From an uncultured Fibrobacteraceae bacterium (lineage in GTDB: Bacteria > Krumholzibacteriota > Krumholzibacteriia > LZORAL124-64-63): a stretch of 64,000 nucleotides of DNA. The translations under genes were made by a program, and so were the position numbers. This document shows, one piece after another, positions 24,889 to 52,727 of this stretch. The notes below the pieces were generated by a model that made no database searches, was not told the DNA's origin, and saw only the letters and a list, made by a program, of their open reading frames with translations. Within the stretch, counting starts at the first letter, position 1, and every line of letters begins with the position of its first letter. The stretch is taken from positions 6,983 through 70,982 of the forward strand of contig CAYWTR010000015.1 of NCBI GenBank assembly GCA_964461255.1. Reading direction: 5' to 3'.

Positions 24889-24934
24889 GATGCCGCATTC
24901 GGCGCAGCGCCGTCATCGCGAGGGAACGGATGGG

Positions 24935-30000: not shown

Positions 30001-30259
30001 CGACGTCGTCCGGTTGCGCCCACAGGCTGTAGGTGTAGTTCTGCCCGATCGGCATGTAGTCCCAGTTCATGCCCAGGACCATGAAATCGCGGCCGTCCAC
30101 TTGCAGGCGCGACCCGCTCGCATCGGTCACCACCTCGATTCTCTGCCGCTCGCCTCCCTCCTGGGCCCGGGCCCCGATCGGCAGCGAGACCAGGAGCAGG
30201 ACCCACGCGAGGGTGGCCCAACCACCGTGCCGACGGCTGACATCACGCTTCGTGCACAC
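27065..30259 (-). CDS. Secreted clan GH-A (GH2-like TIM barrel) glycoside hydrolase fused to a large Trp-rich C-terminal beta-domain
   Basis: VLMWLLGNENNYG (acid/base NE) and VMFTEFGAD (nucleophile) resemble GH2 beta-glucuronidase motifs. GTG start at 30259 has an AAGGAG RBS and is followed by a signal peptide. Confidence 0.55.
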   Translation of the reverse strand: MCTKRDVSRRHGGWATLAWVLLLVSLPIGARAQEGGERQRIEVVTDASGSRLQVDGRDFMVLGMNWDYMPIGQNYTYSLWAQPDDVVKDALDRDMSLLRTLGVNTIRQGADVPPRWVEYIYRRYGIHSVINHFVGRYGLTIDGIWHPLTDYSDPRVRRLLRAELVEVVERYRDTPGVLMWLLGNENNYGLSWKSFEIEALPEGERDAARARFLYSLFGEIIAEIKQRDSRRPVAIANGDVQYIDLIAEECAGLDVFGTNVYRGISARDLFQVVHDKLGVPVMFTEFGADAFNARTMQEDQATQARYLIGQWREIYEQSAGKGRVGNAIGGLIFQWSDGWWKFGQESRLDIHDTNASWPNAGYPEDYVEGQNNMNEEWWGITAKGFSDSRGLYHVYPRAAYYALREAFLLDPYGAGTGIDAIRAHFDRITPMSGVLAARGDAASLRTETLSKVRLAGLRLEYETYSTGGKNISTPPAETPQAGFPSYRGFDHGQSFYADFEAKPSEAVIARLSVNVLGHVPRNPLDEIFYENRGRPRLAEGSDGDPIEIESLERVKVYQSSISWNDHWFNLEGFYRAGHLHWQYEGDFFGLYRDAYYGENVDIYNGEAPVGFEMAGKKALHGLKVAIGPQLWWGANPALFLKYSRSWRGIDWTGMFQEDFAQQTRFSSSVAIPVRSTRKASLQMQAPLGPFGFEGGVLWSGRPRVGETFQLVDEDRLKAEIPLSPADVRQDVIKDEDTFGFRGKLTWQAGRWNWYGQGAYMGLVAEAGPTAIPTFTGWELKDSGSGNQVNALSGVAVTLGNWQVGPNVLWQKPIVGPMPRPELLEGTAGRPRNILDDPFAVRGNRETTAAEIMVTYDPTPATWMWAWDSDVREDARLAFSADLKFMRHKTTADAGLFISAEGQVYPFPGGTPARDLWEMKWRVVNRLTDRARMISHLYLGTAEPNGADTRLVRRFGWDSRIVWPAVAVAGFLKFNDYGPYDYHRDFNLTYPLQAMADVSYTLGRPRWFDLPQTRVGVRFAYRTLDRHSNRYRPPGVPAPAEGELYPEGLPEGREWEIRTYLHLAI

Positions 30260-31646
30260 GGGATTCTCCTTGGCTGATCGGAATGGAGCCGTCCGCGACG
30301 GCGTTGGCGAGCGCGACTCCGCGATACCAGGACGCGCTGTCCCGGGCAAGGCGTTTCTGGCTCCGGGGGTCGACCGCGAAGAGGCCGAACTTCATGCCGA
30401 AGCCGAAGCCCCATTCGAAATTGTCCATCAGCGTCCAGACAAAGTAGCCCGCCAGGGGAACTCCTTGCTCGATGGCGCGGTGCGCGGCCAGCAAGTGTTC
30501 GCGCAGGTAGGACACGCGCCGCCGATCGGCGCTGCGGCCCGACGCGTCGACCGGGTCGTCGTAGGCGGCGCCGTTCTCCGTGACGTAGACCTTGCGCGGG
30601 CCGTAATCGCGCTGGATCCGCAGGAGGCTCTCGCACAGCCCGTCCGGGTACACCTCCCAATCCATGTCCGTGATCCGCGCCGAGTCCGCCGGCGGCACGG
30701 ACAGCGGCCGCCCGTCCGGCCCCTCGCGCATCACCGCGCGGCTGTAATAGTTGACTCCCAGGAAATCCAGGGGCCTGGAGATGGCGGCCAGATCGCCGTC
30801 ACGCACGAAGGGCAGCTCGGGCCCAACGAGGTGGCCCAGGGCGACCCGGTCGGCGATCGCGTCCGCGGGATAGACGCCCCGGAAGATCGGATCGAGATAC
30901 CAGCGATTGAACGAGCCGTCGAACCAGCGGGCGGCGTCCCGGTCCGCCTCGCTGTCGCTGGCCGGATGCGCCGGGCAATGGATCAGCACGAGGCCGACCT
31001 CTGCCCCTGGCGATGTGTCGCGCAAGACGGCGGCCGCCCCCGCGTGCGACAGCAGGAGATGGTGGCCGACGCGGAGGGCCTCGGCGGGGTCGGTGTGCCC
31101 GGGCGCGTGGCGCCCTTCCTCGTGGCCGAGGGTCGCGACGCACCAGGGTTCGTTGTGGGTCACCCAGCGGCGGATCCGATCGCCGAGCCGCCGCCCGACA
31201 ACCGCCGCGTAGTCCGCAAAGGCTTCGACCGTGTCGCGCTGTGCCCACCCCCCGCGATCCTGCAGAGCCTGCGGGAGATCCCAGTGATAGAGCGTGGGGA
31301 ATGGTTCGATGCCCGCCTGGAGCAGGCCGTCAACCAGGGCGTCGTAGAAGTCGAGGCCGGCGGGGTTCGCCCTGCCGCGCCCCTCGGGCAGGATCCGCGG
31401 CCAGGCGATCGAGAAGCGGTACCCTCCCAGGCCAAGTCCCTCGATGAGCGCGACGTCCTCGCGCCAGCGATGATAGTGGTCGCAAGCGATCTCGGGGGTC
31501 GACCCGTCGGCGACATGCCCGCGACCCGCTGCGAAGGAGTCCCAGATCGATGCCCCCCGGCCTCCCGCCCGGCAGCCGCCCTCGATCTGCTGGGCCGAGG
31601 TGGCCACACCCCAGACGAAACCCTCAGGGAATTCCCGGCGGGGCAT
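30243..31646 (-). CDS. Glycoside hydrolase family 1 beta-glucosidase
   Basis: THNEPW (acid/base) and YVTENG (nucleophile). N-terminus FPEGFVWGVATSAQQIEG. Confidence 0.85.
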   Translation of the reverse strand: MPRREFPEGFVWGVATSAQQIEGGCRAGGRGASIWDSFAAGRGHVADGSTPEIACDHYHRWREDVALIEGLGLGGYRFSIAWPRILPEGRGRANPAGLDFYDALVDGLLQAGIEPFPTLYHWDLPQALQDRGGWAQRDTVEAFADYAAVVGRRLGDRIRRWVTHNEPWCVATLGHEEGRHAPGHTDPAEALRVGHHLLLSHAGAAAVLRDTSPGAEVGLVLIHCPAHPASDSEADRDAARWFDGSFNRWYLDPIFRGVYPADAIADRVALGHLVGPELPFVRDGDLAAISRPLDFLGVNYYSRAVMREGPDGRPLSVPPADSARITDMDWEVYPDGLCESLLRIQRDYGPRKVYVTENGAAYDDPVDASGRSADRRRVSYLREHLLAAHRAIEQGVPLAGYFVWTLMDNFEWGFGFGMKFGLFAVDPRSQKRLARDSASWYRGVALANAVADGSIPISQGESRVHEA

Positions 31647-31735: not shown

Positions 31736-31764
31736 TTGTTCGGACTCCGAACATAGTGTATGAT
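31736..31764 (+). promoter_or_regulatory. sigma-70-type promoter (TTGTTC-N17-TATGAT) overlapped by the perfect palindrome GTTCGGACTCCGAAC (31738-31752)
   Basis: Hexamers and 17-nt spacer read directly. The 7-1-7 palindrome covers the -35/spacer, the classic repressor-operator position. The promoter drives the 31882 gene. Confidence 0.45.
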
Positions 31765-31881: not shown

Positions 31882-32856
31882 ATGCAAACCAAGGCCGCTG
31901 CTGTTCTGGCGGTTGTCGTGCTGATCGGCATGACGCCAGCGATGGGTTCGGCCCTCGCGCCCTACAGCCAGGATTTCGAGGGGCTGGCTCTGCCGTCGCC
32001 CGGCGGACTGCTCGGCGACGGCTGGCTTGTGTACGGCAACGTCTTCAGCCCGGGCGGGACGTACCTGTACGGATACGGTCCTTTCCCGGCGCCCAACGAC
32101 GGCGCCGCGTTCTGCGCCATCGCCGCCGACGAGGGAGGGGCAGAACAGGGCGCTCACCAGCTGTCCGTCTACAGCGATTACAACAACGGCGATCACGCCG
32201 CCGGCAATCTGATCGAGGCCAACGTCTTCCAGGAGCAGACGATCCTGCCCGCAGATGTCGGCAACGTCTGGATCTTCGAGTTCCAGGCCAAGCTCGGCAA
32301 CCTGGTCGCCCCCTCGACCGCCGCGGCCTTCATCAAGACGCTCGATCCCGGCGCCGGTTACGCCATGACCAATTTCATCACCGCGGACATGACGGCCATT
32401 CCCACGACCTGGTCGGGCTACTCCTTGTCGATCACGATCGATTCGAGCCTGGCGGGTCAGATCCTGCAGTTCGGATTCATGAACACGGCGACGCTCTACG
32501 TATCGTCAGGCGTCTTCTACGACAACGTGAACTTCCGCCTGAGCACGGCGACCGACGTGCCCGGGGGCGACGCCGCGCGCGGCGCGATGCTGCGCCAGAA
32601 CTATCCGAACCCGTTCAACCCGTCGACACGGATCGACTTCGCGTTGGAGAGCGCGGGGCCCGTCGAGCTGTCCGTCTTCGACGCCGGCGGCCGCAGGGTC
32701 GCCACTCTGCTGCAGCGCAACCTCGCGGCCGGCGAGCACCATGCTGTCTGGAACGGGCGGACGGACGGCGGCCGGCCCGCACCCGCGGGCCAGTACTACT
32801 ACCTCCTGGAGACGGCGACGACGCGCATCTCCCGGGGCATGGTGCTGGTGAAGTAG
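31882..32856 (+). CDS. Secreted protein of unknown function with T9SS-type C-terminal sorting domain (paralog of 38219-38926)
   Basis: Signal peptide MQTKAAAVLAVVVLIGMTPAMGSALA. Core LAPYSQDFEGLALPSPGGLLGDGWLVYGNVF... C-terminus NYPNPFNPSTRIDFAL...GQYYYLL...SRGMVLVK. Confidence 0.6.
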   Translation: MQTKAAAVLAVVVLIGMTPAMGSALAPYSQDFEGLALPSPGGLLGDGWLVYGNVFSPGGTYLYGYGPFPAPNDGAAFCAIAADEGGAEQGAHQLSVYSDYNNGDHAAGNLIEANVFQEQTILPADVGNVWIFEFQAKLGNLVAPSTAAAFIKTLDPGAGYAMTNFITADMTAIPTTWSGYSLSITIDSSLAGQILQFGFMNTATLYVSSGVFYDNVNFRLSTATDVPGGDAARGAMLRQNYPNPFNPSTRIDFALESAGPVELSVFDAGGRRVATLLQRNLAAGEHHAVWNGRTDGGRPAPAGQYYYLLETATTRISRGMVLVK

Positions 32857-32958
32857 CCGGCGCCGACACGGGGGGCCGACGGCCTCGGCCCCCCCCATCG
32901 TCCACGCCGAGAAGCGAGACGTTCATGAGACCCCGCACTCCACTCCGGACGGCAACAG

Positions 32959-35900
32959 ATGGAGGGTAGGCCGGCACCATCGCCGCTGCCGGCGCCGCTC
33001 GGCGCCGCGCCCGCATCCCCGGCGGGCGGTCTCGTCGACTTCGAGGGGGAGCCTTACTACCGGATTTCTGCCTATCAGCGGCTGGCTCCCTTCCTGGTGT
33101 GCCTGGCAAGCGACACCGATCTCTGGATGTTCGTCTCCTCCCGGGGCGGGCTCACGGCCGGCAGGGTCGACCCCGATGGCAGCCTCTTCCCCTACGAGAC
33201 CGTCGATCGGCTGCACGATGCCCACCACCACACCGGACCGGTGAGCGTGATCCGATTCGAGCGCGGCGCGAGCGCGCCCGCGACGTGGGAACCATTCTCC
33301 GAGACGGCGGCGCAGCATCCCGCCAGCGAACGGAACCTCCTCAAGAACGTCGCCGGCAATCGCCTCGTGTTCGAGGAGACCCGCCACGACCTCAAGCTCT
33401 GCTTCCGGTACTCCTGGGCCGCCTGCGACGCGTTCGGGTGGGTGCGGACAGCGGTTCTGGAGAATCGCGGCCCCTGTCCCGTCCACATCTCCCTGCTGGA
33501 CGGCCTGCGGAACGTGCTGCCCCATGGCGCGCCGCTCGCCCTGTACCAGCAGGCGTCCAACCTGGTCGACGCCTACAAGAAGGCGGAGGCGGATCCGGAG
33601 ACCGGGCTGGGCATATTCTCGCTGACGGCCGGGATCACCGACCGGGCGGAGGCGCTGGAGTGCCTCACCGCCAACGTCGCCTGGTGCTGCGGCCTTGAGC
33701 GGTTCCGGGTGCACCTGTCGCTCGCCTGCCTGGCCGACTTCCGGCAAGGGCGGATCGTCGCGGGCCAGCACGCCCTCAATGGGGCCAGGGGGAATTACCT
33801 GGTGAGCTCGCGGCTGGACCTGGACCCCGGCGAGAGCGCGCGCTGGCATCTGGTCTGCGACGCGGGCAGGGACCACGTCCAGATCGCCGCCCTGCGCCGG
33901 CGATTGATCGCGCAGGAGGACCTGCCCGCGCGGATCGACGCCGGCCTGCGGCAGGCCGCCGAGAATCTCCGGCGCTGCGTCGGCAGCGCCGATGGCATTC
34001 AGCTCTCGGGCCGTCCCGAGACCTGGAGCCATCATTTCGCGAACGTCCTCTTCAACAACATGCGCGGCGGCATCTTCTGGCGGAACCACGAGGTTCCGGT
34101 GGGCGACTTCGCCGATTTCCTCCGCACGCGCAACGCCGCCGTTGCCGCGCGGCAGGAGCGGCTGCTCGGCGAGCTGCCCGCCGTGATCGCGTCGCCCCGG
34201 CTGCGCGCCATCGCCTCCGGCAGCGGCGACGCCGACTTCGCGCGGCTGGCCCACGAATACCTCCCGCTTTACTTCGGCCGCCGTCACGGCGATCCCAGCC
34301 GGCCCTGGAACCGCTTCGCGATCCGCGTGCGCGCTCGCGACGGCGCACAGAAGCTGCACTACGAGGGCAACTGGCGGGACATCTTCCAGAACTGGGAGGC
34401 CCTCTGCGCCTCGTACCCTTGCTTTCTGCCCAACGTCGTCGCCAAGTTCGTCAACGCCTCGACGGTGGACGGCTTCAACCCGTACCACATCTCCCGCGAC
34501 GGCATCGCCTGGGAGACCGTCTCGCCGGACGACCCCTGGAGCAACATCGGGTACTGGGGCGACCACCAGATCATCTACCTGCTGAAGCTGCTCGAGGCGT
34601 TGGATCGCTACGACCCGGCGGCGCTGGACCGGATGCTCGCCGCGGAGATCTTCTGCTACGCCGACGTGCCGTACCGGATCCGACCGTACGCGGCGATCCT
34701 GCAGAACCCGCGAGCCACCATCGAGTACGACGCCGCGCGCGCCGCGCGCGTCGCCAGGCGGGTCGCGCAGCTGGGCGCCGACGGCAAGCTCCTCGGCGGC
34801 GCGGACGGAACGATCCACCACGTCAATCTGCTGGAAAAGCTGCTCGTGCCGGCCCTGTCCAAACTGTCGAACCTGATCCCCGGCGCCGGCATCTGGATGA
34901 ACACCCAGCGGCCGGAGTGGAACGACGCGAACAACGCGCTCGGCGGGGGCGGCGTGTCGGTGGTCACGCTCTGCTACTTGCGCCGCTACCTGGCCTTCCT
35001 CGCCGTCCGGCTGCAGGCCGCCGGCGATGCGTCGCTGCCCCTGTCCAGCGAGGTGGCCGACTGGTTCGCCGGGGTCGAGGCGGCGCTGGAGCGCGAGCGG
35101 GGAGCGTTGCGCGCCGGCGTCTACGACCCGCGCGACCGCAAGAGGCTGATGGATCTGCTGGGCGGCGCTTTCGATGCGTACCGGGAAGCGGTGTACGCGC
35201 GCGGCTTCTCGGGGCGGAAGCTCCTGCCGGTCGCGCGGGTGGTGCGACTGTGCCGCACGGGGCTGGCGCACCTGGACCACGCGATCGGCGCCAACCAGCG
35301 CGACGATGGCCTCTACCATGGCTACAACCTGCTGGAGATATCCGCGGACGGCAGCCGGGCCGGCCTGGGTCGCCTGCCGCTGATGCTCGAGGGGCAGGTG
35401 GCCGCCCTCAGCTCGGGAGCGCTCACGGCCGAGCAGTCGCTGGCTGTCCTGGAGCGTCTCTTCGCCAGCGCGCTCTACCGGCCCGATCAACGCTCCTTCT
35501 TGCTCTACCCCGAGCGGTCGCTGCCGGGCTTCCTGGCCAAGAACGTCGTGCCGGACGAGCCCGCCGCCGCTATCCCCCTGCTGCGAGACATGTTGGCGGC
35601 GGGGGATTCGACCGTGCTGGCGCGTGACATCGACGGCGTGATCCGCTTCGCCGGGCATCTGCGAAACGCCCGCGATCTCGCGGTCCTGCTGGAAGACCTC
35701 GAGCGGCGATCAGAATGGTCGGCCGCCGTCGCGCGGGACCGCGGCGCCGTGCTCGATCTGTTCGAGCAAGTCTTCCGCCACAGGTCCTACACCGGGCGCT
35801 CCGGCGTGATGCACGCCTACGAAGGCCTCGGTTGTATCTACTGGCACATGGTCGCGAAGCTGCTGCTCGCGGCTCAGGAGGCCGCGCTGCGCGCCGAGCG

Positions 35901-36450
35901 GGAGGGCGCGCCCGCCTCGGTCCGCGACGGCCTGAAGGCCGTCTACTTCCGGATCCGCGCCGGTCTGGGCCACGAAAAGACGGTGGCCGAGTACGGCGCC
36001 TTCCCCACCGACCCCCACTCGCACACGCCGCCCGGAGGCGGGGCGCAGCAGCCGGGCATGACCGGGCAGGTGAAGGAAGAGATTCTCACCCGCCTGGGCG
36101 AGCTCGGGGTCTGCGTCGAGAGCGGAACGCTGCGGCTGAGGCCCTGCCTCTTGCGTGAGGACGAGCTGCTCGAGCGGCCCGCCGAGTTCCGGTATTACGA
36201 TGTCGGTGGCCACGCGCGGGCGCTCGCTCTGCCCAGCGGCAGCCTGGCCTTCACCTTCTGCCAGGTGCCGGTGGTCTACGCGCGCGCCGCCGCAGCGGCA
36301 AGCATGAAGATCGTCCGTGCCGACGGGAGCGAAGAGGAACGCCCCGGCGACACGCTCGACGCCCGCTGGAGCGCGGAGCTGTTCGCGCGCAGCGGGGCGA
36401 TCGATCGCATCGAGGTCAAGGTCTCGCCGCACGGCATCGACCCCGTCTAG
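32959..36450 (+). CDS. Large cytoplasmic GH94-like glycoside phosphorylase candidate, possibly a beta-glucan phosphorylase of GH94/GH149/GH161 type
   Basis: 1163 aa with no signal peptide. RPEWNDANNALGG resembles the GH94 general-acid GDWND motif. NWRDIFQNWEAL is typical of (alpha/alpha)6-barrel phosphorylases. Size fits GH149/GH161. Confidence 0.45.
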   Translation: MEGRPAPSPLPAPLGAAPASPAGGLVDFEGEPYYRISAYQRLAPFLVCLASDTDLWMFVSSRGGLTAGRVDPDGSLFPYETVDRLHDAHHHTGPVSVIRFERGASAPATWEPFSETAAQHPASERNLLKNVAGNRLVFEETRHDLKLCFRYSWAACDAFGWVRTAVLENRGPCPVHISLLDGLRNVLPHGAPLALYQQASNLVDAYKKAEADPETGLGIFSLTAGITDRAEALECLTANVAWCCGLERFRVHLSLACLADFRQGRIVAGQHALNGARGNYLVSSRLDLDPGESARWHLVCDAGRDHVQIAALRRRLIAQEDLPARIDAGLRQAAENLRRCVGSADGIQLSGRPETWSHHFANVLFNNMRGGIFWRNHEVPVGDFADFLRTRNAAVAARQERLLGELPAVIASPRLRAIASGSGDADFARLAHEYLPLYFGRRHGDPSRPWNRFAIRVRARDGAQKLHYEGNWRDIFQNWEALCASYPCFLPNVVAKFVNASTVDGFNPYHISRDGIAWETVSPDDPWSNIGYWGDHQIIYLLKLLEALDRYDPAALDRMLAAEIFCYADVPYRIRPYAAILQNPRATIEYDAARAARVARRVAQLGADGKLLGGADGTIHHVNLLEKLLVPALSKLSNLIPGAGIWMNTQRPEWNDANNALGGGGVSVVTLCYLRRYLAFLAVRLQAAGDASLPLSSEVADWFAGVEAALERERGALRAGVYDPRDRKRLMDLLGGAFDAYREAVYARGFSGRKLLPVARVVRLCRTGLAHLDHAIGANQRDDGLYHGYNLLEISADGSRAGLGRLPLMLEGQVAALSSGALTAEQSLAVLERLFASALYRPDQRSFLLYPERSLPGFLAKNVVPDEPAAAIPLLRDMLAAGDSTVLARDIDGVIRFAGHLRNARDLAVLLEDLERRSEWSAAVARDRGAVLDLFEQVFRHRSYTGRSGVMHAYEGLGCIYWHMVAKLLLAAQEAALRAEREGAPASVRDGLKAVYFRIRAGLGHEKTVAEYGAFPTDPHSHTPPGGGAQQPGMTGQVKEEILTRLGELGVCVESGTLRLRPCLLREDELLERPAEFRYYDVGGHARALALPSGSLAFTFCQVPVVYARAAAAASMKIVRADGSEEERPGDTLDARWSAELFARSGAIDRIEVKVSPHGIDPV

Positions 36451-36500
36451 CCGGCGAGCGCCCCTGGTTCGAAACACCGCCAGTCGCACAGGAGTCGATC

Positions 36501-38111
36501 ATGAAGCCGATATCCCTCCCGCCGGCGGCCGCTCTCGCCCTGGCCTTCCTCGCTCTGAGCAGCGCAGAGGCCCCGGGGCAATGCATCCTCGCCAATCCCA
36601 GCTTCGAAATCGTCGGTTCGGGAGGAACCGTTTTCGGCGGCTGGTCTCAGTTCGGAGCCATCGGCGCGGTCACGACGGCCGTCCACGGGGCCAGAGCGGC
36701 GCGCGTCAGCGGTCCGAACCAGGGCGGTTGGGATGTCTCGGGTTACTGGCAGCCGCTGGACTGCGTCCCTGGGGAGCGGTGGGCGGTCACGGGCCACGTG
36801 CGCCATCCCGGGAGCAAGCCTCTGACAGGCCAGTGCATCGCCCTGGTCAACCTCGAGTGGCGCGATGCCGGCGGCAACTTGATCAGCTACGATTCCCACA
36901 CCGTCGCCGACGCCTCCACGCCGACGGACACGTACCTGGATTTCTCGTTCGTGAGCGCCGCGGCGCCCGCGGGGACCGTCAAGACGCGGCTCCTGCTCGG
37001 CGTCCTGCAGAGCCCGGCCGATCCGTCGCCTGATGTGCACTTCGACCAGATCACATGCCACAGCACGACGCCGCCGACCATCGACGACATACAGTGGATG
37101 GATTTCCCCGGGGGCACCACTCTCGTCTTCGGCGGCAGGACCTGGCGCGTCAAGGGCCCCGGCTACTACGGTCCCGGCGGCAACCTGTTCAGCAACGCCG
37201 CCAGCAGCGTCTGGGTCGACGCGAGCGCCCGGTTGCACCTGACGCTCAAGAGGATCGGCGGTTCGTGGTACAGCACCGAGGTGGTCGTCGAGCAGCCGCT
37301 GGGCTACGGAGACTACATCGTGACCACCGTCGGCCGACTGGACCAGCTCGATCCCCAGGCGGTGCTGGGCCTGTTCCTGTGGCAGTATGGCGATTGCTGG
37401 GACGAAGGCTACCTGTGGTGGAACGCCTTCAACGAGGTCGATATCGAATACAGCCGCTGGGGCAACCCTGCCGCGGACATCGGGCAGTTCGTCGCCCAGC
37501 CCTATGATTACCCGGGCAACATCCGGCGCTTCGCCGCCACCTTCGGGGACGACGAATTGACCAGCCACGCCATGCGTTGGCTGCCCGATCGCGTCGAGTA
37601 CCGCGTCTGGCGCGGCGGGCCCGGCGACGAATCGCCGGCGACCACGGTCAGCGCCTGGACCTACGCCGGCCCGCACATCCCACGCCCCGAGCAGCCCCGA
37701 CTGCACCTGAACCTGTGGAAGCTCGGCGGCACGCCGGCCGCGGACCAGGAAGTGATCTTCCAGAACTTCACCTTCGTTCCGGAGGGTCTGACCGCCGTGG
37801 CGGCGCAGCAGAGCCCCGCCTCTCCCGCGACCCCGGCCGGCCGTCTGCACCCGGCGGCGCCGAATCCGTTCAATCCCTCGACCACGGCCCGCTTCGATCT
37901 GATCCGCGGCGGCCGCTTTCGGCTTGCGGTCTACGACTTGGGGGGAGGCATCGTGCGGACTCTCGCCAGCGGCGACCTGCCCGCCGGCAGCCATTCGGCC
38001 AGGTGGGACGGGCGGGACGACCATGGCCGCCCTCTGCCCTCGGGAGTGTACATCCTGCGGTTGCAAGGCAGCGATTTCAGCGACAGCCGGCCGGTCGTGC
38101 TGACGAAGTGA
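36501..38111 (+). CDS. Secreted CBM4/9-like plus GH16-like (concanavalin-type) beta-glucanase with T9SS-type C-terminal sorting domain
   Basis: Signal peptide. N-terminal ANPSFE...GWSQ CBM-like module. NEVDIEYSRWG (ExDxE). C-terminus NPFNPSTTARFDL...GVYILRL...RPVVLTK. Confidence 0.55.
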   Translation: MKPISLPPAAALALAFLALSSAEAPGQCILANPSFEIVGSGGTVFGGWSQFGAIGAVTTAVHGARAARVSGPNQGGWDVSGYWQPLDCVPGERWAVTGHVRHPGSKPLTGQCIALVNLEWRDAGGNLISYDSHTVADASTPTDTYLDFSFVSAAAPAGTVKTRLLLGVLQSPADPSPDVHFDQITCHSTTPPTIDDIQWMDFPGGTTLVFGGRTWRVKGPGYYGPGGNLFSNAASSVWVDASARLHLTLKRIGGSWYSTEVVVEQPLGYGDYIVTTVGRLDQLDPQAVLGLFLWQYGDCWDEGYLWWNAFNEVDIEYSRWGNPAADIGQFVAQPYDYPGNIRRFAATFGDDELTSHAMRWLPDRVEYRVWRGGPGDESPATTVSAWTYAGPHIPRPEQPRLHLNLWKLGGTPAADQEVIFQNFTFVPEGLTAVAAQQSPASPATPAGRLHPAAPNPFNPSTTARFDLIRGGRFRLAVYDLGGGIVRTLASGDLPAGSHSARWDGRDDHGRPLPSGVYILRLQGSDFSDSRPVVLTK

Positions 38112-38218
38112 GCCGACGGCCGGTCGCCCCAGGCGCGCCGGCCGCCGCGTGCACGAGCCGATATAGGGAAGGGCCGCCTCCCTGACGGAAGACGGCCCTT
38201 GATTTGGGTCACTCCATA

Positions 38219-38926
38219 TCAGCGGAACAGCGACTTCACGCCGCCCCAGGAGCTTTCCTCGCTCGGCACCGGTGTGCCGGTGTAGAACTGCACGTCGTCG
38301 TAGAAGACGCCCGACGGCTCGTACAGCCGCGCGTGGCTGACGAATCCGAATTGCAGGATCTGGCCCACGAGGCCAGCGTCGATCGTGATCGTCAACGTGT
38401 GCGCCGACCAGGTCGTGGGGATGGTCGTCATGTCGGCGGTGATGTAGTTGGTCATGGCGTAGCCGGCGCCGGGATCCAGGGTCTTGATGAAGGCCGCGGC
38501 GGTCGTGCTCCCGGCCAGGTTGCCGAGCTTGGCCTGGAAGCTGTAGGTCCAGGTCTCGCCGACATCTTCAGCGGTGACGATTTGCTCCTGGAAGACGTTG
38601 GACTCGATGATGCCGTCGGCGTGGTTGCCGTTGTTGTAATCGCTGTAGACGGACAGGCATTGCCCGCCGATGCCTTCGCCGGCGACGATCGCGCAGAACG
38701 CGGCGCCATCGTTGGGGGCCGGGAACGGGCCGTAGCCGTACCACCAACCCCAGTCGTACCCGAAGACGTTGCCGTACACCAGCCAGCCGTCGCCGAGCAA
38801 CCCGCCCGGCGATGGCAGAGGCAGGCTCTCGAAGTCCTGCCCATAGGGCGCCAGCGCCTGGCTCGCCGCGGGCAGCAGGCAGACCAGCATGGCGGCCCCG
38901 AGGATGGAAGCGGTTCGTGCACGCAT
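38219..38926 (-). CDS. Secreted paralog of the 31882 protein, ending in the short SWGGVKSLFR tail instead of a T9SS domain
   Basis: Signal peptide MRARTASILGAAMLVCLLPAASQALA. The core is about 65% identical to 31882-32856. C-terminus ...TGTPVPSEESSWGGVKSLFR. Confidence 0.6.
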   Translation of the reverse strand: MRARTASILGAAMLVCLLPAASQALAPYGQDFESLPLPSPGGLLGDGWLVYGNVFGYDWGWWYGYGPFPAPNDGAAFCAIVAGEGIGGQCLSVYSDYNNGNHADGIIESNVFQEQIVTAEDVGETWTYSFQAKLGNLAGSTTAAAFIKTLDPGAGYAMTNYITADMTTIPTTWSAHTLTITIDAGLVGQILQFGFVSHARLYEPSGVFYDDVQFYTGTPVPSEESSWGGVKSLFR

Positions 38927-39039
38927 CTCTCGACCTTTCTGCGAGGGGTTCCCGCTTGCTCTCGGAACGCCCGAAACGATCGCGGTCCGGTTGGCAAGTC
39001 GCTCCAAAGTTGATTCTCTGTCGTATATCATAGACTATG

Positions 39040-39099
39040 TTCGGTCACCGAATCAAGTCAAAAATGCCGCTTGACCGGATTCGGATCCGGAGATACTTT
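39040..39099. promoter_or_regulatory. Divergent control region with nested inverted repeats: TTCGGTCACCGAA (39040-39052) and CCGAATCAAGTCAA/TTGACCGGATTCGG (39048-39084), overlapping a TTGACC-N17-TACTTT promoter
   Basis: Palindromes read directly. They share the TTCGG-N3-CCGAA half-site arrangement with the operator at 31738-31752. Confidence 0.4.
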
Positions 39100-39174
39100 G
39101 TTCGGGTTTCGTACAAAGAAATTCTCCTCAGCGGGCGATCCTCCGAACCTGGAGGCGGCAAACGAGATGGCACG

Positions 39175-40665
39175 GTGAGCGCCGCCGCGCAGTCCATCAC
39201 GGCCCCCGAGGACCGCATCAAGCTGACCCACAAGCTCGCCTACGGGGCGGGAGCGTTCGTCAACAATCTGCTGGCCGCCGCCAGCGGCGGCATGATGATC
39301 GTCCTGAACCTCGGGCTGGGACTCAACCCGGCTACCGTGGGCCTGCTCGGCGCGCTGCCGCGTTTGACCGACGCGATCACCGACCCCCTCATGGGTTTCA
39401 TTTCCGACCAGACCCGCAGCAAGTGGGGACGACGGCGACCGTACATCTTCGGCGGCGCCATCGCCGCGGGGTTGATCTTCGCGCTGCTGTGGCAGCTCCC
39501 CCGCGGCCAGAGCGAGACCTTCTATTTCGTCTACTTCCTCGTCGGCTCGATTCTCTTCTATGCGGGCTACACGGTCTTCGCCACGCCGTGGGTGGCGCTG
39601 GGCTACGAGCTGACGCCCGACTACAACGAGCGCACGCGCTTGATGGGCGCCCAGAACTTCATCGGTCAGCTTGCCTATGTCGCCTCTCCCTGGTTCCTCT
39701 GGATCATGACCTACGAGGGGTTCTTCCCCGATCAGGTGGCGGGGGCGGCGGCACTGGCGATCGTCGTCGCGCTGGTGGCCGCCGGTCTGGGGATCGTGCC
39801 GGCGATCTTCCTGCGCGAACGCATGCAAAACATCGCCGCGGCCGGAGTGGCGGCCGCCAAGCAGCGCGCGACGACGAGGGACAGTGGTGGCCTTGCCCGC
39901 AACATCAAGGCATTCAGCCGGGGCTTCGGCGTCACGCTCTCCTCCGGCCCCTTCCTCAAGCTCTGTCTGGCGACTTTCCTCGTTTTCAATGGCTTCATGC
40001 TCATATCATCGTTCCAGTACTATGTGATCATCTACTACGTGTGCGGCGGCGTGCAGGTCACCGGCGCCAAGTACGCTGGATACGCGGGGACGGTGGGAGG
40101 CCTCAGCACCTTCGCCGTCGTCGCGTTCGTCGCCTGGCTCGCCACGCGGATCGGCAAGCGTCGCGCCTTCTTCTTCTCCACCGGGGTGTCCATCGTCGGC
40201 TACGCGCTCAAGTGGATCTGCTACAACCCGTCCTACCCGTTGCTGTCCGTCCTGCCGGCGCCTCTGCTGGCTTTCAGCCTGGGCGGTCTGTTCACGCTCA
40301 TGCCGTCAATGGTCGCCGACGTCGTGGACACGGACGAACTCAAGACCCACCAGCGCCGCGAGGGGATGTTCGGGTCGATCTTCTGGTTCATGGTGAAGCT
40401 CGGTATGTCCGCCGCCCTGGCCGGCGGCGGCTATCTGCTCAACGCGACCGGCTTCGACGTGGCGCTGGGAGGGGAGCAGTCCGGCCGGACGATCATGCTG
40501 ATGCGGCTCTGCGACGCGGGCATTCCCATCCTGACCTCGATCATCGCCATCTGGGCGGTGGCGACCTTCCCCATCACCGAAAAGAGAGCCAATGAGGTCC
40601 GCAGGGAGCTGGAGCGCCGCCGGGGCAGGCCAGAGGCCGCGCTGGCATCACCAGCCGAGCCCTAG
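39175..40665 (+). CDS. MFS transporter, glycoside-pentoside-hexuronide (GPH):cation symporter family
   Basis: GPH signature DQTRSKWGRRRPYIFGG and 12 predicted TM segments. Start is uncertain: GTG at 39175 was chosen, while the ORF opens at 39037 inside the regulatory palindromes. Confidence 0.7.
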   Translation: MSAAAQSITAPEDRIKLTHKLAYGAGAFVNNLLAAASGGMMIVLNLGLGLNPATVGLLGALPRLTDAITDPLMGFISDQTRSKWGRRRPYIFGGAIAAGLIFALLWQLPRGQSETFYFVYFLVGSILFYAGYTVFATPWVALGYELTPDYNERTRLMGAQNFIGQLAYVASPWFLWIMTYEGFFPDQVAGAAALAIVVALVAAGLGIVPAIFLRERMQNIAAAGVAAAKQRATTRDSGGLARNIKAFSRGFGVTLSSGPFLKLCLATFLVFNGFMLISSFQYYVIIYYVCGGVQVTGAKYAGYAGTVGGLSTFAVVAFVAWLATRIGKRRAFFFSTGVSIVGYALKWICYNPSYPLLSVLPAPLLAFSLGGLFTLMPSMVADVVDTDELKTHQRREGMFGSIFWFMVKLGMSAALAGGGYLLNATGFDVALGGEQSGRTIMLMRLCDAGIPILTSIIAIWAVATFPITEKRANEVRRELERRRGRPEAALASPAEP

Positions 40666-40699
40666 AGCGGTCGGGACCCAGCGCCGCAGCGTCCCGGCG

Positions 40700-41746
40700 A
40701 TGCCGCGCCTCCGGCGCGTCGCGCCGGCGGCCGCCCTGCTCGCCCTCACCTGCCTGGCGGCGGGCTGCGCGGGCGGGCGAGACAGCCCCTCTTCCTCCCC
40801 GGAGGCCGCCATGGTCATCCGCCCTTTCCACGCCGGCAGCGCGGAACGCTGGCTCGGCAACGCCATCTGTTACGGCCCCCACCGCGACGGCCAGCACCCG
40901 GGCGGCCCCGCCCCCTCCGCCGCGCAGGTGCGCGAGGATCTGCGCTTGATGTCGCCCCGCTGGAGCCTGCTGCGCCTCTACGGATCGGCCGAGGTCGCCC
41001 CGACCGTCCTGTCGGTGATCCGTGCGGACAGCCTGGACATGAAGGTGATGCTCGGGGCGTGGATCGCCGTCGAGGAGGAACGCGACGATCGCGGCGCCGT
41101 CGTGGCGAGACATCCCGAAGAGGCCACCGCCAATCGGCGGGAGGTCGACGCCGCGATTCTTCTGGCGAACGACTATGCCGACATCGTGGTCGCCGTCTGC
41201 GTGGGCAACGAAACCCAGGTCTCCTGGTCGCCCCATCGCAGCCCGCTCGCTGTCCTGATCGGGCATCTGCGGCGCGTGCGGGCGGGCGTGTCGGTGCCGG
41301 TCACATCGGCCGACGACTTCCAGTACTGGCTCCTACCCGAAAGCCGAGCGCTGGCCCGCGAGGTCGACTTCATCACGCTCCACGCCCATCCCATGTGGAA
41401 CGGCCGGCAACTGGCGGAGGCACTGCCCTGGCTGCAGGACCAGGTCGCCGCCGTGCAGGCCGTCCACCCCGGGGCGACCATGGTGCTCGGCGAAACGGGC
41501 TGGGCGACCTCCGTCTCCGCGGCGGGCGAGCAGGCGGCGCTGATCAAGGGACGCCCGGGAGAGGCGGAGCAGGAGATCTACTATCGCGCCGTCGTCTCCT
41601 GGATCGAGGCGGTGCGGCTGACCTGCTTCTTCTTCGAAGCCTTCGACGAGAACTGGAAGGGCGGCCCGGATCCGGCGGAGGTCGAGAAGCACTGGGGCCT
41701 GTTTCGCGCCGATCGCTCGCCGAAGCTCGCTCTGTTGCCGCGTTAG
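40700..41746 (+). CDS. Glycoside hydrolase family 17-like beta-1,3-glucanase/transglycosylase, lipoprotein
   Basis: Lipobox LTCLAAGCAG. Catalytic motifs VGNE (proton donor) and GETGWAT (nucleophile), characteristic of GH17. Confidence 0.65.
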   Translation: MPRLRRVAPAAALLALTCLAAGCAGGRDSPSSSPEAAMVIRPFHAGSAERWLGNAICYGPHRDGQHPGGPAPSAAQVREDLRLMSPRWSLLRLYGSAEVAPTVLSVIRADSLDMKVMLGAWIAVEEERDDRGAVVARHPEEATANRREVDAAILLANDYADIVVAVCVGNETQVSWSPHRSPLAVLIGHLRRVRAGVSVPVTSADDFQYWLLPESRALAREVDFITLHAHPMWNGRQLAEALPWLQDQVAAVQAVHPGATMVLGETGWATSVSAAGEQAALIKGRPGEAEQEIYYRAVVSWIEAVRLTCFFFEAFDENWKGGPDPAEVEKHWGLFRADRSPKLALLPR

Positions 41747-50353: not shown

Positions 50354-51352
50354 TTAGCGGTACATGGACTTGGTGCTGCCCCAGCTGTTGACCTCGGTCG
50401 GCACCGGCGCGTTGACGATCATGTGGTAGGTGCCGCAGACGTCAAGGCCGTAGGCGTCGACGATCAGGTACAGCGTGACCGGCCCCTCGCCCTCGTTGGT
50501 CCAGGAGACGGTCTCGGTGGCACCGCCGCAGCAATTATCCGAGCCGTCCACGCAGGTGCCCGGAATGTCCGCGCAGTCGGTCACCAGGTAGAGCGACATG
50601 TCGACCGTGCCGCTCTGCGAGGCGGAGAAGGTCTCGCCCGGCCCGATCGTGATCTTGTAGACCACGTCCTTGCCCGCCGCCGGGTAGCCGGTGCAGCTCG
50701 GCGTGCCCGGCGTGTAGGTGTTGTTGGCTTCGCAGGTGTTGACATCCCACTCGACCAGCCCTTGCTCCTGCAGATCGATGGCGCCGTCGCAGGTGTCGTT
50801 GACCGGCGGCGGCGGGGGCGGTTCGCCCTCGGTGATCGTCAGGTTGAAGGACGGGATGCACGTGGGCGAGGGCCAGGTGTCCACCATGATGTAGTAGCTG
50901 CCCGGCTCGAGCGTCAGGCCCAGGATCTCGCGCGGCAGTCCGGACGATCCGGTGCGGATGGCGATGCAGCTCGCATCCAGCGGACACGCATCGTCGATGG
51001 CGATGCCGGTCCACGTCGTGCCCAGCGGGTCCATGACGATGTCGACGATCGTCGTCGTGGTGATGTCCAGCCGGTAGATGATGTCCTCGCCGCCGTCATA
51101 GTAGCCGAGGCAGGTGTCGAAGTAGTTGTTGCCCCGCCCGCAGGTCGTCTGGCCCAGGTCGCTGAACGGCAGGCTGCTGATGACGATCGGGCTCGTGCAG
51201 TCGTCCCCTTCCGCCCGCGAGCCTTCGGCGGCCGGCGGCACGATGACCGTCGGGCCATGCTTGGCATCAGGCTTTTCGGCGTAGGCGGCCGCGGCCAGCC
51301 CCAGGACGAGCAGCGGAAGCAGCGGGGTGACGAGCATTCTGGCTGTCTTCAT
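50354..51352 (-). CDS. Secreted tandem PPC-like (pre-peptidase C-terminal-type) domain protein ending in SWGSTKSMYR
   Basis: Signal peptide MKTARMLVTPLLPLLVLGLAAAAYA. Two repeats with the DxxYxxxI ... GxYYIxVD pattern. Confidence 0.5.
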   Translation of the reverse strand: MKTARMLVTPLLPLLVLGLAAAAYAEKPDAKHGPTVIVPPAAEGSRAEGDDCTSPIVISSLPFSDLGQTTCGRGNNYFDTCLGYYDGGEDIIYRLDITTTTIVDIVMDPLGTTWTGIAIDDACPLDASCIAIRTGSSGLPREILGLTLEPGSYYIMVDTWPSPTCIPSFNLTITEGEPPPPPPVNDTCDGAIDLQEQGLVEWDVNTCEANNTYTPGTPSCTGYPAAGKDVVYKITIGPGETFSASQSGTVDMSLYLVTDCADIPGTCVDGSDNCCGGATETVSWTNEGEGPVTLYLIVDAYGLDVCGTYHMIVNAPVPTEVNSWGSTKSMYR

Positions 51353-51755: not shown

Positions 51756-52727
51756 CTACCGGAACGTGCTCTTGACCTGGCCCCAGCTCGAAGGCGTCCC
51801 CGAAACCGGCGCGTCGATGGTGACCAGGGAGGTCCCGCAGCCGCCGGCCGCGTAGCCGTCGATGACCAGGTAGTACACGCCGTCCGCCTCCGCCACGTAG
51901 GTGAACGTCTCGGGGTCGTCCCCGCCCGCCACGCACGAGTTCATGTCGGAGCAGTCGGTCAGCAGATAGATCGCCGCGTCGTAGTTCTCGCCCGTCAGCG
52001 TCACGGCGATGGTCTGCCCGGCGTTGAGGTAGATGCTCCAGACCGCGTCATCGCCGTTGGCCTGGCTGTAGCCGGTGCAGCCGTTGGTCGGGCTGTAGTT
52101 GTTACCACCGCCGCAGGTGTTGACCTGGAATTCCTGCAGGCTCTGATCCTGCAGATCGATCGCGGTCGCGCAGGTGGGATTCGGGTAGGGCACTCCCGCG
52201 GTGATGGTCAGGTTGAAGGCCGGAATGCAGGCGGGCGCCGGCCAGGTGTCGACCATGATGTAGTAGCTGCCCGGAGCGAGCTCCAGGCCCAGGATCTGCC
52301 GCGGCGCGGAGGACGAACCCGTGCGCACGGCGAGGCAGCCGGAGAGCGCCAGCGGGCATTCATCGTCGATCGCGAGGCCGGTCCAGGTCGTGCCCAGCGG
52401 ATCCATGACGATGTCGACGGCCGTCGGCGCGGCGATGTCCAGGCGATAGATGATGTCCTCGCCGCCGTCATAGGAGCCCAGGCAGGTATCGAAGTAATTG
52501 TTGCCCCGCCCGCAGGTGGTCTGGCCCAGATCGCTGAAAGGCAAGCTGTTGATGATGATCGGATTCGTGCAATCGTCCCCGACTGCCCGCGAACCCTCCT
52601 CGGCCGGCGTGACGATGACCGTCGGGCCGTGGTCGGCTTCGGGCTTCTCGGCGGCGTACGCGGCCGCGGCCAGTCCCAAGACGAGCAACGGAAGCAGCGG
52701 CACGATGGATATTCTGGCTGTCCTCAT
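51756..52727 (-). CDS. Secreted tandem PPC-like domain protein ending in SWGQVKSTFR (tandem paralog of 50354-51352)
   Basis: Signal peptide MRTARISIVPLLPLLVLGLAAAAYA. About 75% identity to the downstream paralog in the first domain. The duplication includes the 5-prime leader. Confidence 0.5.
   Translation of the reverse strand: MRTARISIVPLLPLLVLGLAAAAYAAEKPEADHGPTVIVTPAEEGSRAVGDDCTNPIIINSLPFSDLGQTTCGRGNNYFDTCLGSYDGGEDIIYRLDIAAPTAVDIVMDPLGTTWTGLAIDDECPLALSGCLAVRTGSSSAPRQILGLELAPGSYYIMVDTWPAPACIPAFNLTITAGVPYPNPTCATAIDLQDQSLQEFQVNTCGGGNNYSPTNGCTGYSQANGDDAVWSIYLNAGQTIAVTLTGENYDAAIYLLTDCSDMNSCVAGGDDPETFTYVAEADGVYYLVIDGYAAGGCGTSLVTIDAPVSGTPSSWGQVKSTFR

What the first reader, a model, noticed from the sequence alone, without database searches (positions are those of the whole stretch)
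31882..38926. Natural tail-swap: paralogous secreted cores carrying either the T9SS domain or the SWG tail
The 31882 and 38219 proteins share an about 230-aa core (APY(S/G)QDFE(G/S)L(A/P)LPSPGGLLGDGWLVYGNVF ... AAFIKTLDPGAGYAMTN(F/Y)ITADMT(A/T)IPTTWS). They differ in C-terminal tag, the 80-aa T9SS domain versus the 11-aa SWG tail. This supports the tail being a modular, alternative export or anchoring signal. Both genes sit next to the same palindromic operator type.
Basis: seen in the sequence. Interest (0 to 1): 0.5.

Follow-up and report, generated by a model that had tools for sequence, protein, structure and literature searches.

The report
Short C-terminal tag swaps with secretion domain
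Two secreted sugar-binding-type proteins in one beta-glucan utilisation locus share a core but end in different C-terminal tags, and the short tag is an undescribed, widespread, strictly C-terminal motif that behaves like a protein-sorting or anchoring signal in uncultured bacterial phyla.

Summary
Genes 31882-32856(+) and 38219-38926(-) encode signal-peptide proteins whose cores are 64% identical (E 2e-105). One ends in an 82-aa FlgD-Ig/T9SS-like domain. The other ends in ...PVPSEESSWGGVKSLFR.

This is an old, conserved paralog pair, not a recent local swap. At least 23 Krumholzibacteriota, Eisenbacteria and Latescibacterota MAG loci carry one gene of each type, 3.6-7 kb apart. They flank a GH149 beta-1,3-glucan phosphorylase. 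Both usually lie behind the same promoter-embedded palindrome, TTCGG-N3-CCGAA.

The core is a CBM-like jelly roll. Elsewhere it carries PEP-CTERM tails, dockerin-like repeats or nothing.

The tail, [ST]-W-[GS]-x-V-K-[SA]-L-[FY]-R, is modular:
- It always lies 0-2 residues from the stop codon (178 of 178 ORFs).
- It never occurs together with the Ig-like domain (0 of 131).
- It is found on at least 41 sequence clusters of signal-peptide proteins.
- It alternates with the Ig-like domain in at least two other families.
- No Pfam, NCBIfam or PDB entry matches it, and I found no paper on it.

A localisation function is inferred, not shown. The machinery is unknown, and the "T9SS" label falls just below the curated cut-offs.

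The parts
31882..32856 (+). Gene A: signal peptide (about residues 1-24), CBM-like core (about residues 25-218, nt 31954-32535), linker, and an 82-88-aa Ig-like C-terminal domain (about nt 32590-32853)
   Evidence: Model of the C-terminal domain: pLDDT 88, six-strand sandwich.
38219..38926 (-). Gene B: signal peptide, the same CBM-like core (residues about 25-214), then the tail module
   Evidence: AF2 pLDDT 89, beta-sandwich over residues 26-216. Foldseek matches CBM16/4/22/30.
38222..38272 (-). SWG tail module of B (PVPSEESSWGGVKSLFR, residues 219-235). The stop codon is 38219-38221.
   Evidence: Tail logo. Predicted short helix at residues 227-234, pLDDT about 67.
31739..31764 (+). Palindrome TTCGGACTCCGAA followed by CATAGTGTATGAT (-10-like), upstream of A and in the region between A and the divergent GH1 gene
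39027..39056 (-). Promoter-like TTGATT-18-TATGAT that encloses the palindrome TTCGGTGACCGAA, upstream of B. A weaker second site lies at 39099-39115 towards the MFS gene.
32959..36450 (+). GH149 beta-1,3-oligosaccharide phosphorylase, between the two paralogs
   Evidence: phmmer against PDB 6hq6: 1046 bits, E 0.
36501..38111 (+). Secreted 536-aa protein with the same Ig-like C-terminal domain. It contains an EVDIE motif, which I recall as GH16-like; this was not tested.
   Evidence: PF13860, 38 bits.
30243..31640 (-). GH1 beta-glucosidase, divergent from A
   Evidence: PF00232, 503 bits.
39037..40665 (+). MFS_2 sugar transporter, divergent from B
   Evidence: PF13347, 207 bits.
40592..41746 (+). 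GH17-like glucanase
   Evidence: PF00332, 33.7 bits.
50354..51352 (-). Unrelated secreted protein that ends in ...PVPTEVNSWGSTKSMYR (second tail-bearing gene of the window)
51756..52727 (-). PPC-domain secreted protein that ends in ...PVSGTPSSWGQVKSTFR (third tail-bearing gene)
   Evidence: PF04151, 40 bits.

Best explanation
A and B are ancient paralogs. Each is a Sec-exported, CBM-like beta-sandwich protein, probably a beta-1,3-glucan binder. Both belong to a conserved laminarin-type utilisation locus: GH1, GH149 phosphorylase, a GH16-like protein, GH17 and an MFS transporter. Both are transcribed from promoters with the same repressor-type palindrome between the -35 and -10 elements.

The two proteins differ in a C-terminal localisation module. 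A carries an Ig-like FlgD_ig/T9SS-type domain. B carries an approximately 17-aa tail, (P)V-x-T-E-x-x-[ST]-W-[GS]-x-V-K-[SA]-L-[FY]-R-COOH.

The tail is a lineage-specific, portable C-terminal tag of Eisenbacteria, Krumholzibacteriota and Latescibacterota. After Sec export it most likely forms a short amphipathic helix on a flexible Pro/Thr linker. A dedicated envelope protein would recognise that helix and retain or route the passenger to a place different from that of cargo with the Ig-like domain. Long-term retention of one paralog of each kind implies that the two tags specify different fates.

Shown: homology, modularity, strict terminal position, mutual exclusivity, conservation and co-regulation architecture. 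Inferred: glucan binding, the localisation function, helix formation and receptor recognition.
For: Homology and family size
- The cores are 64% identical.
- 1690 homologs were found. Nearly all are 235-240 aa with the tail, and a few are 310-324 aa with PF13860.

Conserved pairing
- At least 23 MAG loci hold one gene of each type on opposite strands.
- Same-locus identity of 0.60-0.66 is below the best same-type identity between genomes in 21 of 23 loci.
- The two types have their own sequence signatures, and the window pair shows no recent gene conversion.
- In L025, gene conversion has homogenised the core (54-nt identical runs) and stops exactly at the core/tag junction.

The same slot holds other modules
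- PEP-CTERM in Planctomycetes homologs, dockerin-like repeats, and tandem copies of the core.

Generality of the tail
- The motif occurs 51 times at a C-terminus and 5 times elsewhere in 1.66 M residues.
- 178 tail ORFs all end 0-2 aa from the stop codon, and none of them also has the Ig-like domain (131 ORFs carry that domain).
- In the metagenome scan, all 127 matches were followed by a real stop codon. The 88 full-length ORFs fall into 41 clusters, and all have a signal-peptide-like N-terminus.
- Beta-helix proteins and one other family also alternate between the tail and the Ig-like domain.
- A tail-bearing NHL propeller resembles the PEP-CTERM protein ScyF.

Conservation and context
- Tail residues K (98%), L (91%), V (87%) and W (84%) are more conserved than the core, whose mean column identity is 53%.
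- The core has a CBM-like fold.
- GH149 lies between the two genes.
- The operator is present upstream of 37 of 39 tail-type and 25 of 28 domain-type genes.
Against: - No receptor, peptidase or transporter was identified. A neighbourhood search found only a SurA/PpiC-like gene near some tail arrays.
- The tail helix is predicted with only moderate confidence (pLDDT about 67).
- There is no localisation, proteomic or binding data.
- The samples of loci were selected through the core family or through the tail itself, so frequencies are biased.
- The taxonomic range rests on record titles.
- The T9SS identity of the Ig-like domain is below the curated thresholds.
Confidence: 0.6

Rival explanations
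1. The tail is an in-plane amphipathic membrane anchor that binds lipid directly, as the MinD membrane-targeting sequence or the C-terminal helix of PBP5 do. It would hold the protein on a periplasmic membrane face without any receptor.
For: Predicted helix at residues 227-234. W, V, L and F/Y are spaced i, i+3, i+6, i+7, with K and R alongside. The resemblance to the MinD sequence GFLKRLF is from memory.
Against: Lipid-binding helices usually conserve a pattern, not a sequence. Here K is 98%, L 91% and W 84% conserved across at least 41 sequence clusters of passenger proteins and several phyla, which suggests protein recognition. Ten residues is very short for a monomeric anchor.
Confidence: 0.15
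2. The tail is a minimal signal for the same T9SS-like translocon that handles the Ig-like domain. It would then be a third type of CTD.
For: Both tags occur on Sec-signal proteins in the same genomes and alternate within families. Both end in hydrophobic residues followed by a basic residue.
Against: The tail profile shows no similarity to the segment before PNPF in the Ig-like domains beyond shuffled controls. The tail cannot form the Ig fold that the literature says T9SS needs (PMC11285876 abstract). Stable retention of both tag types on paralogs argues for different fates.
Confidence: 0.1
3. The nearly invariant Lys is a site of covalent attachment, for example to peptidoglycan by an L,D-transpeptidase as with the C-terminal Lys of Braun lipoprotein. 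The passenger would be tethered in the periplasm.
For: K is 98% conserved, the most conserved tail position. The C-terminal ..YR/..FR context recalls the ..YRK end of Lpp (from memory).
Against: The Lys is five residues from the end, not terminal. No adjacent transpeptidase was found. Lpp-type linkage uses the terminal residue.
Confidence: 0.07
4. The tail is a recognition tag for a periplasmic PDZ protease or a quality-control system (C-terminal degron or activator), not a localisation signal.
For: A strict requirement for a free C-terminus is typical of PDZ ligands.
Against: It would be odd for a degron to occupy the slot otherwise used by PEP-CTERM, dockerin-like repeats or the Ig-like domain. 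It would also be odd for it to be kept on abundant, conserved substrate-binding proteins of a catabolic locus.
Confidence: 0.05
5. The tail is only the structural end of the core domain, and the difference between A and B has no sorting meaning.
For: The tail is present in most family members.
Against: The same tail occurs on at least 41 sequence clusters of proteins. In the model it follows a 10-residue coil after the last strand. Gene conversion in L025 stops before it. Core homologs work with other C-terminal ends or none.
Confidence: 0.03

Closest known systems
T9SS type A C-terminal domain (TIGR04183 / PF18962) and the FlgD Ig-like domain (PF13860)
   Same: The tag of protein A is about 82 aa, Ig-like, strictly C-terminal and found on many Sec-signal proteins. 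Foldseek hits include FlgD, PorU, PorZ and a T9SS-bound NucA CTD.
   Different: Both T9SS sequence models score below their cut-offs, and only FlgD_ig passes. No T9SS machinery was examined. The SWG tail itself has none of these features.
PEP-CTERM/exosortase and other tripartite C-terminal sorting signals (LPXTG, GlyGly-CTERM)
   Same: They occupy the same slot directly after the same core domain in Planctomycetes homologs. They are short, strictly C-terminal and occur on many unrelated secreted proteins.
   Different: The SWG tail has no transmembrane helix and no basic cluster. It is 10-17 aa and predicted to be a helix. No NCBIfam sorting-signal model matches it.
'Choice-of-anchor' domains (an NCBIfam naming concept; recalled from memory)
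   Same: One passenger domain is found with several alternative C-terminal anchoring signals in different lineages.
   Different: The core matches no named choice-of-anchor model. There were no hits for A or B, and only a 12-bit chance-level hit for another passenger.
Beta-sandwich carbohydrate-binding modules (CBM16, CBM4, CBM22, CBM30)
   Same: Jelly-roll fold: Foldseek E 2e-6 to 1e-4, target-normalised TM up to about 0.64. The genes sit in a glycan-utilisation locus.
   Different: No sequence-level membership: no Pfam hit and no PDB profile hit. Ligand binding was not tested.
Dockerin-cohesin type docking modules
   Same: A small C-terminal module that attaches diverse secreted proteins to a common partner. 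Dockerin-like repeats occupy the same slot in some core homologs.
   Different: The tail has no Ca-binding repeats and is much shorter. No cohesin-like partner was identified.

Membership tests
T9SS type A CTD (TIGR04183 / PF18962), for the tag of A | Sequence model at or above the curated cut-off | tested here: not met
   TIGR04183: 20.7 bits against a cut-off of 23. PF18962: 14.4 bits against 27.
T9SS type A CTD, for the tag of A | Compact Ig-like beta-sandwich of about 70-90 aa | tested here: met
   AF2 pLDDT 88, six strands. Foldseek hits PorU, PorZ, a NucA CTD and FlgD at E 2e-4 to 3e-3. The fold is generic.
T9SS type A CTD, for the tag of A | Extreme C-terminal position on Sec-signal proteins of diverse function | tested here: met
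   119 of the 137 matched stretches, in 131 ORFs, end exactly at the ORF end. Five such proteins are in the window.
T9SS type A CTD, for the tag of A | T9SS translocon, PorV and PorU encoded in the same genome; CTD cleaved on secretion | not tested
   None of these genes is in the window, and whole genomes were not available.
FlgD_ig (PF13860), for the tag of A | Pfam model above the gathering score | tested here: met
   39.7 bits against a cut-off of 27.
PEP-CTERM / sortase-type tripartite signals, for the SWG tail | Signature motif, then a hydrophobic transmembrane helix, then a basic cluster | tested here: not met
   The tail has 10-11 aa after a P/T-rich linker and no hydrophobic stretch. 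No NCBIfam hit.
OMP beta-signal (C-terminal BAM recognition strand), for the SWG tail | Terminal aromatic residue with alternating hydrophobic residues in a beta-strand of a barrel | tested here: not met
   R is terminal in 71% of tails. The hydrophobic spacing is i, i+3, i+6, i+7. A helix is predicted. The passengers are soluble sandwiches, beta-helices and propellers.
Portable C-terminal sorting/anchoring tag (generic class), for the SWG tail | Strictly terminal, on many unrelated signal-peptide proteins, interchangeable with known tags, lineage-restricted | tested here: met
   Named sources are only Krumholzibacteriota, Eisenbacteria and Latescibacterota.
Portable C-terminal sorting/anchoring tag (generic class), for the SWG tail | A dedicated recognition or processing machinery, and a demonstrated effect on localisation | not testable with these tools
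   This needs whole-genome phylogenetic profiling and experiments. The neighbourhood analysis was uninformative.
CBM (beta-sandwich carbohydrate-binding module), for the core | Jelly-roll fold | tested here: met
   Foldseek matches to CBM16/4/22/30.
CBM (beta-sandwich carbohydrate-binding module), for the core | Sequence membership in a CAZy/Pfam CBM family; carbohydrate binding | tested here: not met
   No Pfam, NCBIfam or PDB sequence hit. Binding is not testable here.

The most novel reading that the evidence does not exclude
The [ST]WGxVKxL[FY]R-COOH tail is the signal of an undescribed envelope sorting or anchoring pathway, with its own receptor or enzyme. The pathway would be specific to Eisenbacteria, Krumholzibacteriota and Latescibacterota. 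It would run in parallel with the T9SS-like C-terminal-domain route and serve dozens of secreted proteins per genome.
Probability: 0.4. Interest if true: 0.8.

Novelty: new variant of a known kind. Interest (0 to 1): 0.65.

Why it matters
C-terminal sorting tags such as LPXTG, PEP-CTERM and the T9SS CTD have each led to the discovery of an envelope machine. They are also routinely used to predict surface proteomes.

This tail marks many secreted proteins in phyla known almost only from metagenomes. In the window, 3 of about 55 genes carry it. In a capped scan, at least 41 sequence clusters of tail-bearing proteins turned up. These proteins are currently annotated as 'hypothetical'.

Recognising the tag would have three uses:
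- It gives a one-line rule for finding the exported or anchored proteome of these organisms.
- It gives a precise handle (a tail HMM plus phylogenetic profiling) for finding the responsible machinery.
- The conserved pair of glucan-binding paralogs is a natural experiment in which only the tag differs.

Tried and rejected
1. Tail-only profile search of the 5.8-billion-protein set. With padded sequences it returned only 4 fragments, so one search was wasted.
2. The idea that the tail is a truncated first strand of the Ig-like domain. Tail HMM scores on the 25 aa before PNPF (maximum 4.3 bits) do not exceed shuffled controls (maximum 6.1 bits). Rejected.
3. A clean two-clade phylogeny. The NJ tree is star-like and only roughly separates the two types. 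I relied instead on nearest-neighbour and same-locus identity statistics and on type-specific signatures.
4. Recent gene conversion in the window pair. DNA identity is 75% and the longest identical run is 30 nt. Rejected for the window. It is present in L025.
5. Conserved neighbours as candidate machinery. Only an ABC exporter cluster and SurA/PpiC-like PPIases recur. This is not convincing.
6. Known models. There is no NCBIfam or Pfam hit on the tail, and no PDB chain matches the tail profile at E <= 10.
7. Literature. Searches on Krumholzibacteriota, Eisenbacteria or Latescibacteria combined with secretion, sorting or T9SS, on 'choice-of-anchor', and on literal tail peptides found nothing relevant.


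Full report
**1. Observation**

The ORF at 31882-32856(+), called A here, encodes 324 aa. The ORF at 38219-38926(-), called B, encodes 235 aa. Both show the GC3 bias of real genes in this 70% G+C window.

BLASTP of A against B gives 64% identity over 236 residues, E 2e-105. The match begins in the signal peptides and ends about ten residues after the last core strand (FYDNVNF in A, FYDDVQF in B). After that the two proteins are unrelated.
- A continues into an 82-aa block, NYPNPFNPSTRIDF...RGMVLVK.
- B stops after PVPSEESSWGGVKSLFR.

**2. The 80-aa domain of A**

The domain passes Pfam FlgD_ig (39.7 bits, cut-off 27). It falls just short of both T9SS sorting-domain models: TIGR04183 scores 20.7 against 23, and PF18962 scores 14.4 against 27.

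An AF2 model of the domain (pLDDT 88) is a six-strand Ig-like sandwich. Its Foldseek matches include FlgD, the C-terminal domains of PorU and PorZ, and a T9SS-bound NucA CTD. The E-values are only 2e-4 to 3e-3, among many generic Ig folds.

Four further proteins of the window end in the same domain. Across 1.73 Mb of related DNA, 119 of the 137 matched stretches, in 131 ORFs, end exactly at the ORF end. So the domain behaves like a T9SS-type CTD. Membership of that family was tested by sequence and not met, and the machinery was not examined.

**3. The core**

An AF2 model of B, built on 76 homologs, has pLDDT 89. It is a beta-sandwich over residues 26-216, followed by a 10-residue coil and a short helix at residues 227-234 with pLDDT about 67.

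Foldseek places the sandwich with CBM16, CBM4, CBM22 and CBM30 modules (E from 2e-6). No Pfam, NCBIfam or PDB sequence match exists.

The surrounding genes fit beta-1,3-glucan use:
- The gene between A and B is a GH149 beta-1,3-oligosaccharide phosphorylase (1046 bits to 6hq6).
- Nearby are a GH1 beta-glucosidase, an MFS_2 sugar transporter, a GH17-like enzyme and a secreted protein with an EVDIE motif and the same Ig-like domain.

The core is therefore probably a beta-1,3-glucan-binding module. This is an inference.

**4. An old, conserved pair rather than a local swap**

The family has 1690 members at E <= 1e-3. Named sources are Krumholzibacteriota, Eisenbacteria and Latescibacteria. Nearly all of the best 120 are 235-240 aa with the tail. 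A few are 310-324 aa with PF13860.

In 69 genome loci, at least 23 carry one tail-type and one domain-type gene 3.6-7 kb apart on opposite strands, as in the window. Identity between the two genes of one locus is typically 0.60-0.66. In 21 of 23 loci this is below the best identity to a gene of the same type in another genome.

In the window's own sublineage the two types carry distinct signatures: GYDWxWWYGYG in the tail type and PGGTYLYGYG in the domain type. The window pair is 75% identical in DNA, with no identical run longer than 30 nt. The duplication and the difference in tags therefore predate the divergence of these lineages.

In one MAG (L025) the cores have been homogenised. DNA identity is about 85%, with identical runs of up to 54 nt. 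Identity collapses exactly after FYDN, so both tags survive. That recombination boundary is direct evidence that the core and the tag are separate modules.

**5. The slot after the core holds known anchoring modules elsewhere**

- Planctomycetes homologs end in a PEP-CTERM signal: FYDNINF-xPEPSxLxLFGLALxxxRRR.
- A full HMMER scan of 1.84 billion representative proteins found 740 clusters.
- Among the best 149, the core is followed by PEP-CTERM-type tails, Ig-like domains, SWG tails, dockerin-like repeats or nothing. It also occurs in tandem copies and at the end of proteins of 1200-1900 aa.

This is the pattern that NCBI curators call 'choice-of-anchor' (recalled from memory). No named model of that kind matches A or B.

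**6. The tail is a general, portable, strictly terminal motif**

The window has three tail-bearing genes: B, and two tandem genes of another family at 50354-51352(-) and 51756-52727(-). The second of these has a PPC domain.

The logo from 156 distinct tails is G-P-V-[AP]-T-E-[ED]-x-[ST]-W-[GS]-x-V-K-[SA]-L-[FY]-R. W is 84% conserved, V 87%, K 98% and L 91%. That is more conserved than the core, whose mean column identity is 53%.

In 1.66 M residues of six-frame ORFs the motif occurs 51 times at the C-terminus and 5 times elsewhere. Two of those five lie two residues from the end.

A tail HMM separates real tails (21.5 bits or more) from everything else (17.8 bits or less). Over 1.73 Mb it finds 178 ORFs. 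All end 0-2 residues after the motif, and none also has the Ig-like domain.

I scanned metagenome contigs with a degenerate DNA pattern for W-G-x-V-K-x-L-[FY]-R followed by TRR.
- All 127 matches are followed by a true stop codon. None is followed by TGG, the fourth codon the pattern allows.
- 125 of the 127 lie outside the core family (one of the 126 that the script labelled 'other', in L141, is a core-family fragment by eye).
- The 88 full-length ORFs fall into 41 BLAST clusters. All have a signal-peptide-like N-terminus, and most are 180-330 aa.

Passenger domains include right-handed beta-helices, a lamin-tail domain, an NHL propeller related to the PEP-CTERM protein ScyF, and many folds with no Pfam match. 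The beta-helix family and one other family also alternate between the tail and the Ig-like domain. The only named source for the largest soil family is Candidatus Eisenbacteria.

**7. Is the tail already known?**

No Pfam or NCBIfam model covers the tail. No PDB chain matches the tail profile at E <= 10. Full-text searches for the phyla combined with secretion or sorting terms, and for literal tail peptides, returned nothing relevant. Absence from these resources is not proof of novelty, but I found no description of it.

**8. The operator**

Both genes lie downstream of TTCGG-N3-CCGAA followed by CATAGTnTATGAT. For B the scan finds TTGATT-18-TATGAT enclosing the palindrome.

The element is present upstream of 37 of 39 tail-type and 25 of 28 domain-type genes. 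The consensus sequences are TTTGGACTTGATTCGGTnACCGAACATAGTnTATAAT and AAAAAACCTTTGTTCGGACTCCGAACATAGTGTATGAT. A palindrome between the -35 and -10 elements is the classical position of a repressor site.

In the window both sites lie in divergent intergenic regions: GH1/A and B/MFS. A ROK-family regulator is encoded at 24719-26206. Any link between that regulator and the palindrome is untested.

**9. Mechanism**

Shown:
- The tail is a separate, conserved, strictly C-terminal module on Sec-exported proteins.
- It is interchangeable with known localisation modules.
- It is mutually exclusive with the Ig-like domain.
- It is retained alongside that domain on paralogs for a long time.

Inferred: it is a localisation tag that gives a fate different from the route taken by domain-bearing cargo. 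The very high sequence conservation across unrelated passengers points to recognition by a protein. A free C-terminus, a Pro/Thr linker and a predicted amphipathic helix fit a docking peptide or a sorting signal.

The rivals cannot be excluded without experiments or genome-wide profiling. They are a direct lipid anchor, a minimal T9SS signal, covalent tethering through the conserved Lys, and a PDZ or degron tag. The idea that the tail is a truncated first strand of the Ig-like domain was tested and rejected.

**10. Verdict**

It is unproven on function and on the T9SS label, and it is imprecise in calling this a swap in this genome.

The main value of the finding lies beyond its coordinates. 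The 'SWG tail' appears to be an undescribed, widespread C-terminal tag of Eisenbacteria, Krumholzibacteriota and Latescibacterota. It is a new variant within the known class of C-terminal sorting or anchoring signals.

Noticed in passing
window 31739-31764 and 39027-39056 (also 39099-39115); L001-L069, about 90-165 nt upstream of the tail-type genes: A whole promoter, not only the palindrome, is conserved across the phylum: a -35-like TTGATT/TTTGTT, then CGG-N3-CCGAACATAGT, then a -10 TATAAT/TATGAT. The central triplet differs by gene type: usually TTA (also TAA or TCA) in front of tail-type genes and AGT/ACT in front of domain-type genes.
   Followed up: partly
L025 9881-10717(+) and 14278-15426(-): Gene conversion between the two paralogs (about 85% DNA identity, identical runs of 54 nt) ends exactly at the core/tag junction.
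   Followed up: yes
window 50354-51352(-) and 51756-52727(-): Two tandem paralogous secreted proteins, one with a PPC pre-peptidase domain. Both carry the SWG tail. Their function is unknown.
   Followed up: partly
L072 1563-4815, L136 2067-2975, L137 1-2898, L062 1561-3267: SurA/PpiC-like periplasmic PPIase genes lie next to arrays of tail-bearing genes, both in soil Eisenbacteria-like contigs and in a Krumholzibacteria-like MAG. This may be plain synteny or a chaperone link.
   Followed up: partly
L070-L189 (for example L146, L151, L181, L137): A large soil paralog family of about 250 aa, Cys-rich, with ...WQGG...GCPxxTPTxxxTWGxVKSLYR. It occurs in tandem arrays of 2-3 genes per contig, has no Pfam match, and its only named source is Candidatus Eisenbacteria.
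   Followed up: partly
window 24719-26206(+): A ROK-family regulator with an N-terminal HTH lies near the glucan locus. It is a candidate binder of the TTCGG-N3-CCGAA operator; this was not tested.
   Followed up: no
window 27065-30349(-): A 1094-aa secreted protein with a weak GH2-type TIM-barrel match at its N-terminus and about 700 aa of unassigned C-terminal sequence, adjacent to the locus.
   Followed up: no
signal peptides of the family (for example B residues 10-24): A conserved Cys inside the hydrophobic region of the signal peptide (L-[IV]-C-L-x-P-A-A), upstream of an AxA-type cleavage site. It is not a canonical lipobox.
   Followed up: no
L009 5750-6241(-): The only clear tail-like motif that is not terminal: LTWGRIKTTF followed by 28 more residues. 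It may be a frameshift, a decayed tail or a read-through variant.
   Followed up: no
P0213-P0361: The CBM-like core also occurs as 2-3 tandem copies, at the C-terminus of proteins of 1200-1900 aa, and fused to dockerin-like repeats that end in GPSAxxxC.
   Followed up: partly
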